The notes under the pieces were generated by a model. That model worked only from the letters and a program-made list of their open reading frames with translations. It was not told the origin of the DNA and did not search any database. Position numbers and translations under genes: made by a program. Positions 23,041 through 64,000 of a stretch of 64,000 nt of DNA are shown in pieces. This DNA is from Eledone cirrhosa (Eukaryota), in contig OZ024752.1 of NCBI GenBank assembly GCA_964016885.1, forward strand, positions 5,270,001-5,334,000, read 5' to 3'. Position 1 is the first letter of the stretch, and each line of letters starts with the position of its first letter.

Positions 23041-23744
23041 TGCCTTAGTATTTGACACCATCTGTCTGTCTCGTTGAGATGTGACATCTTTCGTTGATTT
23101 TTTCCTTTTCTGCAAAGAAAAATATTTAGAATCATTAATTGTTGTTGTTATGCGATTGCTTGATGACGGTCAGGGGTTTCTCGCACATGGCCGCACCAGC
23201 CACCCCACTACTTGCTGTTTATGCAGTTATTGCAATACTTGTCTGTTGTGCTCATAATTTTTTAGCATTAATATACTGATTGGATGCCCTTCCTATCACC
23301 AGCACCACTTTACAGCATGGACTGGGTGCTTTTATTCATGCCACCAGCACTAAGGAAGTCATCTTACTGGACTTAGGGGGCTTCTCCACCCCACACCAAT
23401 TTATTTGAAGTGGTAGCTCTCCTAGACGGGTTGCCCTGTAACTGCTCTGAGTGGATCTGGGTTTAAGGTGCTATATGCATTATATATATATATATATAAT
23501 GAATAAATGATGATTAACATGGATAAGCGATGCAATAGGGTTCTATTCCAAGCATTAACATATGTTTCATTGCTTAGTATGCAATCAAATATGTCTTAAA
23601 ATTGCTTTCAACAATGTTATTGTGAAACTTGGTTTTAGATACTGCACATTAAAATCTTCCATGGTACAGATTACTCATAACCTTACCTTAGATAACCCTA
23701 AACGATATCTCATTTACTTTGATATATATATATATATATATATT

Positions 23745-23793
23745 GTTTCAGAAGATCCCGTTAAGGGTGAAAGCAGCGATTCTTTGCTTAAAC
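23745..23793 (+). ncRNA. Type-I hammerhead-like motif with CAGAAGA core (family H, copy 1)
   Basis: GTTT-CAGAAGA-TCCC gttaa GGGT-GAAA-GCA gcgattctt TGC-T-T-AAAC. Stems I, II and III pair; U4 is replaced by A. Confidence 0.6.
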
Positions 23794-24735
23794 TTTAATC
23801 CGTTATTTTAATAAATATATCATATATATATTATATATATTATTTATATATATATATAATATATATATTTGCTTCTGCTGGACACCACCAGAGGGCAATA
23901 GTCCCAGTGTTTTGCATAGCAACGGCTTTTTAAATGTTTACCTGTAAACATACCATATTTCTTTAGAAATATGAAATTCTAATACATATCTGTATACAGC
24001 TATGCATGAAGCTAAATCCTAATTCTATAATATATATATATTATAAGTGTATGTGTATGTGTGTGTGTGTATCATCTGCTACAGTCATATTATGTAGATT
24101 ATAGACTCCATACTTTGGCTAAATTTCAAAGTTTCCCATATCTTTTGAATAGCCCATATTTAGCCACTGATAAGCTCCTGGTGTGGTTTTTCAAAACTAA
24201 TTTTTATGTTTTGTGTAATTCTTGGCCATCTCCTTTGCAATTATCATAATATTCTCCTGGCTCAAGTGACCTTTATTATCACACACGTAGCAGCTGAGCC
24301 TTCTGTTCTTCACCCCTAATCTGATAGACTTCCTCTCTCCTCCCTCAGTGAGGATACAGCTCTAGTATAGCTTTCTGTAATTGAGGGAAGGGGGTCATCT
24401 GGAGTTGGAGGCCAGAGCTTCTTCCGAATTCTCTTTCAAGAACAAATGGAACTCCACACCCTTTCTGACAGAACAAGGTTATGTCAACTTTCTCTTTGCT
24501 TTTTCATGAGTACATTCTTCAGGCAAGGTATGTCTTTTAAGACATACCTCTTCCATGCATCTTCCTTTGTCTAGAATTAACTATTGTCCAGTGTTTTTCT
24601 TTGGCTTACAATACTAACAAAAGAGGAGTTGCTGTTGTTGTTAGTGGGGCATTTATTATTACCATTTTGCCATTTAAGTTTGTGCTTTCATTTGTCAAAT
24701 TGTAATTGGTTGTGTCTAAAATTGTGTCTGTTTAA

Positions 24736-24956
24736 CCCTTAAGCATTTAAACCAGCCACATCCATCCAGACTTCTCTCACCACTTTCCGTTCAAAATGAC
24801 TCTAATTGGCTGCTCATACTGATGTTAAGGTATTGTTCTCAACATAAATAATATCAAAATTTCATAGATTCAATATTATGTGAGATAATTATGTGAGATA
24901 AAGCCTTTACCGGAAAGATATAATAGTAAATATAGAGTAATGTAAATGCTAAATGG
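24736..24956 (+). mobile_element. piggyBac-type MITE, complete
   Basis: TTAA-CCCTTAAGCATTTA ... TAAATGCTAAATGG-TTAA: TIRs plus a TTAA target duplication. Confidence 0.85.
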
Positions 24957-25063
24957 TTAATTGTTCCTTTTCTCATCCTCTAATCTGTTCTCTGTTTCTA
25001 CATTTTTACTAAATAATATATGTTGCTGAGAGATCAGACATTTAAGCACCGAGAATATAGATA

Positions 25064-25323
25064 TATAAGTATAAAGAATGGTGTAATCATATGTAGAGAT
25101 GCTATAAAATAGGGTGACGATCCTTAAAGACAAGAAAAAGAAGTTGCCATCAGCTGCTATGAGGAATTGAGCCCCATATCTCCCAGATACCAGCTATCTG
25201 GGGTTCAAATCCTCATAGCAGCTGATGGCAACTTCTTTTTCCATCTTTTAAGGGTTTTCACCCTATTTTATAAGCTATTTTATAGCATCTCTACACATGA
25301 GCACACCATCCTTTATACTTATA
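25064..25323. repeat. 260-bp foldback element with tRNA B-box-like arms
   Basis: 25064-~25175 is the reverse complement of ~25195-25323. Contains GGGGTTCAAATCC. A related arm lies at 13437-13500. Confidence 0.85.
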
Positions 25324-25597
25324 CAGTTAATCCTTCGTTCATCAATGCCTCTCATTATCAACAAATCAGTTCATGAACAATTTTTCTAAATATAAAACGT
25401 TTACCTGTAAACATACCGTATTTCTTTAGAAATATGAAATTCTAATACATATCTGTATACAGGTTCACAAATGGTGTCTCAAGTAACAAACACACAGGCC
25501 AGCAACAATGGTTGACAAACTTGGAGTATCAGTGGGAAAGTGTCACTTATTATTTCATTATAATTTTATTATTATTTCATAATTAATATTGTCAGGG

Positions 25598-25825
25598 TTG
25601 TGGATTGGCAGAATCAGTAGAGTGTCAGACAATATGCTTTGCAGCATATAATTACGATCCTTTACGTTCTGAGTTCAAATCCTGCCAAGTTTAGATATGC
25701 CTTTCATCCTTACAAGATTGATAAAATAAAGTACCAGTAATGCACTGGGGTCAATTTAATCGACTCTCCCTCCACCCCGCCAAAAAAGAAAATTGTTGGC
25801 CTTGTGCCTGAATCAGAAACCATTA
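25598..25825 (+). mobile_element. SINE family A (long subfamily)
   Basis: Head, body and tail all present. Confidence 0.88.
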
Positions 25826-26013
25826 TTTTTTTTTTTTATTAATGTTGTCGTTGTTGTGGTTATTATTATTTATAAAACTTTATTACTGATTTTTTCTTAA
25901 TTTTTCATTCTTTTCCCCCATTGTTTTCTAAATTATTATCATTATTATTATTATTATTATTATTATTTTCTTTTTTCTATTTTTTCTTTTTCTATTCTGC
26001 CCTCCTCTTTCAG

Positions 26014-61651: not shown

Positions 61652-61722
61652 TATTTTATTATGCGCATTTCAAAGACAAACATCATCATGCAATAACATT
61701 TGTGTTTTCATCAGATAAAACA
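61652..61722 (-). ncRNA. Canonical type-I hammerhead ribozyme (left arm)
   Basis: Reverse complement of 62793-62863. Confidence 0.82.
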
Positions 61723-62792
61723 GGAGAACATGATATGAAGGCTAAAAAACACTTGTGGAGTGCAGTTTTAAATCAACATATGAAAAGTGGTTTTAGATTG
61801 ATGTGTGATATTGGGAAAAAAAATATATATATTTTATTTAGAGAGGGGGGTGGGTGGAAAGGATGAAAGGGAAGGAGATGAGAGGGAGATATGGGTGATA
61901 GAGAGAAAGAGATAGTTTTTATAACTGAGAGGAGATATATTTTTTACATAGAGAGGTTGAAAACCGTTGGAAGATACTGTATAAATTAAAAATTTTGAAA
62001 ATTAACGAAGGGAGGATATGTGCGAGGAAAAAATATTTTATTTAGGGAGGGGGGGGATGAAAAAAGGGGGAGGAGATGAGAGTGAAGGTGGAGAGGGAGA
62101 GATGGGTGATAGAGAGAAAGAGATAGTTTTTATAACTGAGAAAAAGATATATTGTTTTAACATAGAGAGGTTGGGAACCGTTGGAAGATAATGTATAAAT
62201 TAAAGGAATTTGAAAATTAACGAAGGGAAATTATGTATGAAGATAGAGAGAATATTCATCCACAATTATTATTTTTTTCTCTCTATCTTCATACATAATT
62301 TCCCTTCGTTAATTTTCAAATTCCTTTAATTTATACATTATCTTCCAACGGTTCCCAACCTCTCTATGTTAAAACAATATATCTTTTTCTCAGTTATAAA
62401 AACTATCTCTTTCTCTCTATCACCCATCTCTCCCTCTCCACCTTCACTCTCATTTCCACCCCCACCCCCCTCCCTAAATAAAATATTTTTTCCTCGCACA
62501 TATCCTCCCTTCGTTAATTTTCAAAATTTTTAATTTATACAGTATCTTCCAACGGTTTTCAACCTCTCTATGTAAAAAATATATCTCCTCTCAGTTATAA
62601 AAACTATCTCTTTCTCTCTATCACCCATCTCTCCCTCTCATCTCCTTCCCTTTCATCCTTTCCACCCCCCCCCCCCTCTCTAAATAAAATATTTTTTCCC
62701 AATATCACACATCAATCTAAAACCACTTTTCATATGTTGATTTAAAACTGCACTATCAACAAGTGTTTTTTAGCCTTCATATCATGTTCTCC

Positions 62793-62863
62793 TGTTTTAT
62801 CTGATGAAAACACAAATGTTATTGCATGATGATGTTTGTCTTTGAAATGCGCATAATAAAATA
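62793..62863 (+). ncRNA. Canonical type-I hammerhead ribozyme (right arm)
   Basis: TGTTTTAT-CTGATGA-(36-nt stem II)-GAAA-TGCGCA-T-A-ATAAAATA; palindromic stem III ATGCGCAT. Confidence 0.82.
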
Positions 62864-63017
62864 CATGGAACTCCTTTAACCATCTTTTGATCTTATATTA
62901 TATATATATATATGTATACCCCACTCCTACAAACTGTAGAGTGCTTCTTATCCGATATCTGCATTGCTTTATTGTACTACAATAAAACTCACCTCCTACA
63001 TATATATATATATATAT

Positions 63018-63340
63018 ACTCCTTTACTCTTTTACCTATTCCAGCCACCTGGCTGAGGCCATGCTGGGGCACCGCCCTTGTTGCTACATATTCTATCTCC
63101 AGCATGTATTGGCTAGCCATTGGTGCAAGAGGGAGTTCGTTGCTGCAGCCTTTGGTTTACATTCATACCTGTGCTGTGCTGTGGGCTCATCCTGGATCAC
63201 AGAGTGTCAAGATGTTTCTTGTAAATATCCACGTCCACACCATGCAGATCCCTTAAATTTCTTGGCAGCTTGTTGAAGATTTGAGGATCTTTAAACCCCA
63301 GGCTATTGCAATATCTGCTCCAATATTGCTTGTACAGGAT
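63018..63340 (-). mobile_element. CR1-group LINE 3' fragment
   Basis: Diverged homologue of 56064-56370. Confidence 0.8.
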
Positions 63341-63644
63341 ATGTTACAGGTTTGTATATATATATATGTGTATATATATATATGTGTATATATATATATA
63401 CATATATATGTATATATATATGTATGTATATATGTATATATACATATATATGTATGTATATATGTATATATACATATATATGTATGTATATATGTATATA
63501 TGCATATATATGTATATATATATGTATATATATATATATATATATATATATATATATATATATATACATATATATGTATGTATATATATATATATATGTA
63601 TATATATGTATATATATATATGTATACATATATATATATATATA

Positions 63645-63682
63645 TGATGATTTCTAATGAATGAAACAGTTCTAGTCCTGTA
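63645..63682 (+). ncRNA. 5'-truncated hammerhead motif at a (TA)n junction
   Basis: (ta)n-TGATGA-TTTC taat GAAT-GAAA-CAG ttctagtc CTG-T-A; C3 and the 5' strand of stem I are missing. Confidence 0.5.
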
Positions 63683-64000
63683 GAATCTCATCTATATTAA
63701 AACTTTTATACTCTGCTATGTATTGAGTACCTTACTTACTGTGGTTACCTCCGATTCAACCCGGAATAACGTATATATATATATATATATATATATATAT
63801 ATATATATATATATATGTATATATATATATGTATACATATATATATATATATATACATATATATGTATACATATATATGTATATATATATATGTATATAT
63901 ATATATGTATATATATATATATGTATACATATATATATATATACATATATATATATATATATATACATATATATATATATACATATATATACATATATAT

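What the first reader, a model, noticed from the sequence alone, without database searches (positions are those of the whole stretch)
23497..63775. A dozen hammerhead-ribozyme motifs from at least seven unrelated mini-element families, all lodged in or beside (TA)n
Seen: hammerhead-type folds (stem I - core - stem II - GAAA - stem III - UH) at 23550(-), 23745(+), 42618(-), 42888(+), 43354(-), 54836(-), 55646(+), 60304(+), 60636(-), 61652(-), 62793(+) and 63645(+). Each lies in a short non-coding insert bordered by TA repeats, and several have palindromic stem III (ATGCGCAT, ACAATTGT, ACATATGT, ACAGAGCTCTGT). Known: Penelope-like elements and retrozymes carry minimal type-I hammerheads with palindromic stem III that cleave as dimers. 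Inference: this genome hosts a diverse population of non-autonomous ribozyme-bearing retroelements that home to (TA)n and are hidden by simple-repeat masking.
Basis: partly seen in the sequence, partly recalled or inferred. Interest (0 to 1): 0.85.

Follow-up and report, generated by a model that had tools for sequence, protein, structure and literature searches.

The report
Hammerhead tails of Penelope-like retroelements
Most of the listed self-cutting-RNA (hammerhead) motifs are real or decayed, and they are likely the shortened tail ends of Penelope-like jumping genes, a kind already known to carry such a motif and to insert into TA repeats; cutting itself is untested.

Summary
Observation partly confirmed. 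Intact-core type-I hammerheads occur at 4 sites (42892+, 60310+, 61714-, 62801+) against 0.06 in shuffles (0 of 266 reach 4). 61714 and 62801 are the arms of one 1.5-kb inverted insertion. Four sites are copies of one family (A) with a fixed U4A change; three more are decayed; 23550 has no core. That gives about 10 insertions from 6-7 families, not 12 intact ribozymes. Public DNA reads show families A and B are high-copy, that A ends run into (TA)n, and that the majority A read continues upstream of the short inserts, so these are mostly 5'-truncated ends. The architecture matches the published hammerheads of Hydra-clade Penelope-like elements (U-U closing helix II, U at position 17, short tail, TA target, inverted copies), including Hydra-1_Obim of octopus. 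A Hydra-type endonuclease remnant lies at 14576-15420. 'Non-autonomous mini-elements' is not shown, although no family could be linked to an ORF either. TA adjacency is shared with other repeats. New members of a known kind; the only unusual detail is family A's fixed U4A core overlapping a splice-acceptor-like sequence.

The parts
23745..23812 (+). Family A, short copy: hammerhead-like fold with U4A core, U-U closing helix II, U17, then a ~23-nt tail into TA
43334..43401 (-). Family A, short copy; helix II broken, helix I 3 bp
54820..55100 (-). Family A, long copy: about 215 nt of upstream family sequence (its first ~30 nt confirmed as the majority upstream in reads), motif at 54836-54886, tail, TA
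   Evidence: (loose ends at 60693)
60633..60693 (-). Family A, short copy with an 11-nt deletion removing the cleavage site and the 3' strand of helix I
60278..60374 (+). Family B hammerhead (core 60310, U3-A8, GUC with C17 at 60346, 12-nt palindromic helix III) inside a long closing hairpin; family sequence spans about 60254-60460
   Evidence: z=-7.9
61509..63018 (.). Family C: one inverted (palindromic) insertion with TA tracts at both ends; each arm has ~540 nt of non-coding G-poor sequence, the hammerhead and a ~130-nt tail
62793..62863 (+). Family C hammerhead, intact core, A17 at 62855
61652..61722 (-). Family C hammerhead, mirror copy on the other arm
42469..42778 (-). Family C' insert between TA tracts: decayed hammerhead 42613-42675 (G12A) plus a 26-nt perfect inverted copy of its tail (42580-42605 / 42720-42745)
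42888..42930 (+). Family D hammerhead, intact core, bulge plus 6-bp helix II, 2-bp helix III, U17; in island 42816-43142
55646..55736 (+). Family E: likely decayed hammerhead (extra G in core, long helix II region, palindromic ACAATTGT, A17); tail ends at TA 55784
   Evidence: by eye; not caught by descriptors
63649..63687 (+). Family F: decayed hammerhead (G5A, helix II absent) in the 126-nt island 63646-63771
23550..23600 (-).
   Evidence: absent
14576..15422 (-). Broken 3' part of a Hydra-type PLE ORF (linker with CxCx5C, GIY-YIG endonuclease); shows the autonomous class exists in this genome; no hammerhead found behind it
40220..40338 (+). Duplicate of the 43398 copy's upstream flank that keeps only the last ~17 nt of the family A tail (motif missing)

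Best explanation
The motifs are likely the 3' ends of several families of endonuclease-bearing Penelope-like retroelements of the Hydra type, left as 5'-truncated and sometimes inverted insertions in (TA)n. Shown: hammerhead folds above chance; high copy number of families A and B; A's 3' ends joined to TA; most A reads longer than the short inserts; one 1.5-kb inverted insertion; a Hydra-type endonuclease remnant in the window. Inferred from published PLE biology: the element's GIY-YIG endonuclease nicks (TA)n, its reverse transcriptase starts 25-130 nt downstream of the hammerhead and copies towards the 5' end, and usually stops early, so every new copy keeps the hammerhead and tail but rarely the ORF; a second inverted copy gives palindromes such as 61509-63018. 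Predicted: B and C would cleave weakly or only as dimers or with protein help; A, C', E, F would cleave poorly or not at all. Cleavage is probably not needed for these copies to have been inserted.
For: Descriptor excess over shuffles. Reads at >=80% identity (461 nt, 4 runs): depth about 2350 and 2630 over family A and about 1140 and 930 over B, against 8-14 at 60448-60495. Loose ends of 1165 and 1386 reads show A's tail running into TA. Loose ends of 1529 and 1642 reads continue upstream with the sequence of the 54820-55100 copy (agreement 0.71, 0.70). Majority letters restore pairs broken in the window copies: A helix II (60669, 2217 of 2347 reads in X16), A helix III (60651, 1669 of 1695), B helix I (60349, 354 of 477). 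File S2 of Craig 2021 (my count of its 26 Hydra rows): 14 have U-U flanking helix II and 10 have U at the cleavage site, as in family A; the ACAG/CUGU helix III of B and F occurs in several rows. File S1 lists (TA)n as target for 26 of 27 Hydra families, an inverted 5'-truncated copy in Penelope-13_HM, and Hydra-1_Obim from Octopus bimaculoides with its hammerhead at nt 2403 of 2507. U3-A8 is a known PLE core variant. Window ORF remnant: CxCx5C linker; 2 of its 3 long aligned relatives carry DKT, the third DKS.
Against: C has ~540 nt and A ~215 nt of non-coding sequence upstream, and the window's own remnant has no hammerhead behind it. Three of 4 local A copies start within 3 nt of the same point, which random truncation does not predict. 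None of the 26 Hydra rows has U4A or U3-A8, and six short window motifs were absent from that supplement, so these are not the published families. Neptune or other clades are not excluded. No two-sided covariation within a family was seen in the 40 of 143 difference rows shown.
Confidence: 0.72

Rival explanations
1. Some families (A, C) are true non-autonomous derivatives of PLE ends, or dispersed monomers of non-LTR retrozymes, mobilised in trans by PLE proteins.
For: 3 of 4 local A copies begin at the 5' edge of helix I; upstream agreement of only 0.7 in reads means a sizeable minority stop or diverge there; no ORF upstream of A or C; a preprint derives animal retrozymes from pLTRs and finds dispersed monomers; an octopus annotation lists 893 recently active unclassified SINE families.
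Against: The majority of A reads run on upstream. No hammerhead unit occurs in direct tandem in the window, the defining arrangement of non-LTR retrozymes. The short A copies have different upstream flanks and different point changes. Published Hydra elements explain every architectural feature.
Confidence: 0.22
2. The motifs are chance folds in AT-rich, palindrome-rich sequence next to microsatellites.
For: The loosest descriptor gives 4.8 hits by chance; 23550 has no core; Rfam finds only 1 of the sites tested, below its gathering score; the monomer hammerhead fold is 5.7-17.8 kcal/mol above the minimum-energy fold in 6 of 6 motifs tested, with helices only partly specified.
Against: 0 of 236 and 0 of 266 shuffles reach the observed counts; a U3-A8 compensatory core; family majorities restore the helices; close match to published PLE hammerheads.
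Confidence: 0.04

Closest known systems
Hydra-clade Penelope-like elements and their 3' hammerheads (Craig, Yushenova, Rodriguez, Arkhipova 2021, PMC8557442; read: passages, Introduction, section 11, supplement parts 2 and 53 of 59), incl. Hydra-1_Obim
   Same: Type-I hammerhead about 100 nt from the 3' end, U-U closing helix II, frequent U17 or A17, palindromic helix III, (TA)n target, 5'-truncated and inverted copies; the window holds a CxCx5C endonuclease remnant.
   Different: Window families do not match the published sequences (6 motifs searched, 0 found); U4A and U3-A8 cores are absent from the 26 listed rows; C has a long helix II; no family was linked to an ORF here.
Minimal hammerheads of metazoan PLE pseudo-LTRs (Cervera and de la Pena 2014, PMC4209133; read parts 1-2 of 4)
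   Same: Thousands of dispersed single motifs in many families per genome, attributed to truncated PLEs; pairs on opposite strands ~100-700 bp apart; U3-A8 variant; bulged nt before G10.1-C11.1 (family D); low, dimer-dependent cleavage; an intron end at the 5' edge of helix I in D. virilis.
   Different: Most window motifs keep a 4-6 bp helix III, so they are not minimal; cephalopods were not mentioned in the parts read.
Non-LTR retrozymes (Cervera and de la Pena 2020, PMC7229834, passages; Li et al. bioRxiv 10.64898/2026.07.22.740005, parts 1-2 of 5)
   Same: Non-coding, low-GC units with type-I hammerheads, derived from PLE ends; dispersed monomers occur.
   Different: Defined by head-to-tail tandem units and circular RNAs; no tandem unit is in this window and RNA could not be examined.
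Poseidon element of Anolis (Frangieh et al. 2024, PMC11167929; read parts 1-2 of 4)
   Same: Mechanistic model: nick at AT-rich DNA, internal start of reverse transcription downstream of the hammerhead; ribozyme cleaves only with protein and is not needed for insertion in vitro.
   Different: Different clade; its hammerhead overlaps the ORF start.

Membership tests
Type-I hammerhead ribozyme | Core CUGANGA + GAAA + UH (or U3-A8 covariant) | tested here: met
   Met at 42892, 60310, 61714, 62801. Not met at the A copies (U4A), 42663 (G12A), 63654 (G5A), 55651 (extra G) and 23550 (no core).
Type-I hammerhead ribozyme | Three helices around the core, more than chance | tested here: met
   0 of 236 and 0 of 266 shuffles reach the observed counts.
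Type-I hammerhead ribozyme | Two-sided covariation within a family | tested here: inconclusive
   One search shows only pair-restoring one-sided majorities; 103 of 143 rows were not shown; only families A and B were laid.
Type-I hammerhead ribozyme | Site-specific self-cleavage | not testable with these tools
   No RNA run was available to lay; needs an in vitro assay.
Hydra-clade PLE | ORF with RT (DKT motif) and C-terminal GIY-YIG with CxCx5C linker, on the same element as the hammerhead | tested here: inconclusive
   Endonuclease remnant with this linker at 14576-15422, but not joined to any listed hammerhead; no assembly was held to extend the families.
Hydra-clade PLE | Hammerhead near the 3' end with Hydra-type architecture | tested here: met
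   Tails of about 25-215 nt to the next TA tract for A, C, C', D, E, F; architecture as in File S2.
Hydra-clade PLE | Insertion into (TA)n | tested here: met
   Family A: 4 of 4 window copies reach TA within 76 nt of the core (null 0.16 each) and read loose ends run into TA. B's window copy is not TA-bounded at its 3' end; other families rest on single copies.
PLE (general) | 5'-truncated and inverted copies, pseudo-LTRs | tested here: met
   Inverted insertion 61509-63018; 26-nt inverted tail copy at 42580-42745; short and long A copies. Direct pLTRs were not seen.
Non-LTR retrozyme | Head-to-tail tandem units, each with a hammerhead | tested here: not met
   No such tandem in the window; not testable genome-wide.
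Non-LTR retrozyme | Abundant circular RNA | not testable with these tools
   No RNA run to lay.
Non-autonomous element (SINE-like) | Fixed short 5' end and no ORF-bearing parent | tested here: inconclusive
   3 of 4 local A copies share a 5' end, but the majority of reads extend further.

The most novel reading that the evidence does not exclude
Family A is a high-copy PLE-derived element whose hammerhead has fixed a U4A change that turns the core into a spliceosomal acceptor (U-tract, AG, UUUCAG) at the edge of helix I. Splicing or stalling there would switch or remove the ribozyme and would spawn a ~70-nt 'hammerhead-only' non-autonomous sub-family that homes to (TA)n, the fold serving as a protein-recognition signal and not as a catalyst.
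Probability: 0.12. Interest if true: 0.6.

Novelty: new member of a known kind. Interest (0 to 1): 0.27.

Why it matters
If the best reading holds, this is a dense local sample of something already described: (TA)n-targeting Penelope-like elements litter such genomes with hammerhead-bearing tails. The value is practical. Six or seven undescribed families could be classified by their hammerheads, and some repeats now filed as unclassified SINEs may be PLE ends (inference). Family A is a natural, high-copy core variant that could test the open question whether PLE hammerheads must cleave at all.

Tried and rejected
No whole genome was held, so no genome-wide Infernal scan or flank clustering. 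Whole-window Rfam scan was swamped by TA-driven microRNA models. DNA patterns of family A found 0 matches in metagenome, viral and prokaryote-genome contigs and of family B 0 in metagenome contigs. Two word-index protein searches with the endonuclease remnant found nothing; the exhaustive search did (3991 at E<=0.001). Pfam gave no RT family for 6 of 6 long relatives and only a sub-threshold GIY-YIG hit for the remnant (E=0.009); clade assignment rests on motifs read from the alignment. Related-locus search in viral contigs: 48 pattern matches, 0 confirmed. No RNA holder listed. Read ends at 60254 coincide with an EcoRI site in RAD libraries and were rejected as a biological end. A 5' splice site that would rebuild a CUG core in family A was sought in 54811-55800: two CTG/GT junctions, neither with a GTRAG donor, and no GTRAG printed at all; rejected for lack of support. 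Shared origin of tails: 0 of 15 tail pairs significant. Paper searches: hammerhead+Penelope+octopus and hammerhead+cephalopod+retrotransposon gave Craig 2021 as the only relevant listing; 'hammerhead ribozyme'+'U4A'+'cleavage' gave 0, which is weak evidence because subscription papers (e.g. Lunse et al. 2017, recalled, not seen) are not held. Earlier-findings look-ups by place and by sequence were empty.
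Full report
Setting. The window is AT-rich eukaryotic DNA with 315 TA runs merging into 58 tracts, many RTE-type LINE fragments (RVT_1 hits in 4 of 4 such ORFs tested) and long minisatellites. No tool names the host; public runs call it 'organism A'. Its repeat make-up recalls octopus genomes, which is my recollection and not a result. 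No assembly was held.

Check of the motifs. I wrote type-I hammerhead descriptors and ran them on both strands. With an intact core (U3-A8 allowed) and helix I of 5 bp or more there are 3 hits against a mean of 0.02 in 236 block-wise dinucleotide shuffles; with one core change 7 against 0.9; the loosest tier gives 12 against 4.8. Allowing the PLE-type bulge before helix II and leaving TA tracts in place gives 4 against 0.06 and 8 against 1.4 in 266 shuffles. No shuffle reached any observed count. The second descriptor was written after I had seen site 42892 and the 2014 paper, so it is not blind to that site. The relaxed tiers contain hits that I regard as chance (61986, 62533, 28642, 531 and others).

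61714 and 62801 are the arms of one inverted duplication (697 of 743 columns identical). Four sites are one family, A, all with U4A; one of them passes the descriptor. 42663 has G12A and 63654 has G5A and no helix II. 55651 is plausible by eye only. 23550 has no core. The count is thus about 10 insertions from 6 or 7 families: C and C' are weakly related (0 of 200 shuffles, z=4.0), the others are not, apart from a marginal C'/23550 score. Rfam recognises only 60310 (HH9, E=4e-4, below gathering) and nothing in three other stretches tested.

Evidence from public reads. One call was allowed, and I laid two contig sets (one sample) and two RAD DNA runs on 60240-60700 at 80% identity or more. Depth was about 2350 and 2630 over family A and about 1140 and 930 over B, against 8-14 at 60448-60495. 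Both are therefore high-copy families; RAD sampling does not allow a copy number. At A's 3' side 1165 and 1386 loose ends give the family tail followed by TA. At the 5' side 1529 and 1642 loose ends agree at 0.71 and 0.70 with the sequence found upstream of the 54881 copy, so most copies are longer than the 70-nt inserts. Majority letters repair pairs that the window copies have lost in A's helices II and III and in B's helix I. No alternative letter was listed at A's position 4 or at B's positions 3 and 8 among the 40 best-supported rows (103 rows not shown), so U4A and U3-A8 appear to be family traits. No two-sided change was seen.

TA association. All 12 sites are within 133 nt of a TA tract, but so are 40% of eligible positions in the range. 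Ten of 39 islands of 40-1000 nt between TA tracts hold an accepted motif (my count). Twelve of 26 (ATC/GAT)n runs, many of them LINE tails by inspection, also lie within 30 nt of a tract. TA adjacency is therefore not specific. It is convincing for family A (4 of 4 copies, null 0.16 each, plus the read ends) and for C (TA at both outer ends). B's 3' end abuts another repeat.

What it is. Craig et al. 2021 describe PLE insertions as highly 5'-truncated, often with an inverted copy, with the hammerhead near the 3' end, and the Hydra clade as inserting almost always into (TA)n, with canonical hammerheads, a DKT motif and a CxCx5C linker. In their File S2 14 of 26 Hydra rows have U-U flanking helix II and 10 of 26 have U at the cleavage site, the two features that looked odd in family A. 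Hydra-1_Obim from Octopus bimaculoides is listed with a (TA)n preference and a U17 hammerhead about 100 nt from its end. The window itself holds a broken Hydra-type ORF end at 14576-15422 with the CxCx5C linker, about 8 kb from the first site and not joined to any of them. Cervera and de la Pena 2014 report thousands of single motifs per genome in many families, opposite-strand pairs, the U3-A8 variant, and low dimer-dependent cleavage. A natural U10.1-U11.1 mismatch is also on record.

Mechanism. Shown: folds, family structure, high copy number, TA junctions of A, one palindromic insertion. Inferred from the Anolis element in vitro: nicking of AT-rich DNA, an internal start of reverse transcription downstream of the hammerhead, and insertion that does not need cleavage. 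Early termination would then leave hammerhead plus tail in every copy. Predicted: as monomers the hammerhead conformations lie above the minimum-energy folds in 6 of 6 motifs (helices only partly specified). In B the palindromic helix III pairs with helix I in the monomer but forms a 12-bp duplex between two molecules (-20.1 kcal/mol), in line with dimer-dependent cleavage. None of this was assayed.

Against this reading. C and A carry about 540 and 215 nt of non-coding upstream sequence. Three of 4 local A copies start within 3 nt of the 5' edge of helix I, directly after a U-tract and AG that resemble a splice acceptor; an intron end at this position is reported for D. virilis Penelope. No matching donor was found upstream in the long copy.

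Verdict. Real but largely ordinary: new families of hammerhead-bearing PLE ends, most likely of the Hydra type. The fixed U4A core is the one feature I could not find in print (absent from the 26 rows), and the library lacks subscription papers. The preprint's supplements were closed, and of Craig 2021's supplement I read 2 of 59 parts plus term searches. Earlier scan notes on other genomes reached similar verdicts; they are not independent support.

Noticed in passing
window 14576-15422 (-): Broken Hydra-type PLE ORF end (linker and GIY-YIG endonuclease), followed by a G-poor 3' region with a 69-nt duplication (14102-14170 / 14310-14378) and no recognisable hammerhead.
   Followed up: partly
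window 60496-60625: A third high-copy repeat (read depth up to about 3100) with a short GTCT/GTCC microsatellite; recalls DINE-1/Helentron-type elements (recalled, untested). It lies between the family B and family A copies.
   Followed up: no
window 40220-40338 (+) and 43323-43490 (-): An inverted duplicate of the flank of one family A copy; one arm has the motif, the other keeps only the end of the tail.
   Followed up: partly
window 44677-50953: Minisatellite of about 48 nt, over 6 kb, giving long repetitive open frames on both strands.
   Followed up: no
window 31551-36977, 6727-7421, 18169-18648: Further minisatellite arrays (periods about 28, 86 and 60 or a divisor of it).
   Followed up: no
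window 51995-52119 and 25064-25323: Short inverted-repeat (MITE-like) segments; the first starts directly at a TA tract.
   Followed up: no
window 11572-13322, 21287-22571, 58349-59707, 189-1395: RTE-type LINE fragments with an RT plus a PHD-like zinc finger; their (ATC)n tails often abut TA tracts.
   Followed up: partly
window 61829-62236 and mirror: Inside each arm of the family C palindrome lies a direct repeat of about 200 nt, 82% identical.
   Followed up: no
window 60372-60401: A 30-nt perfect palindrome directly after family B's closing hairpin.
   Followed up: no
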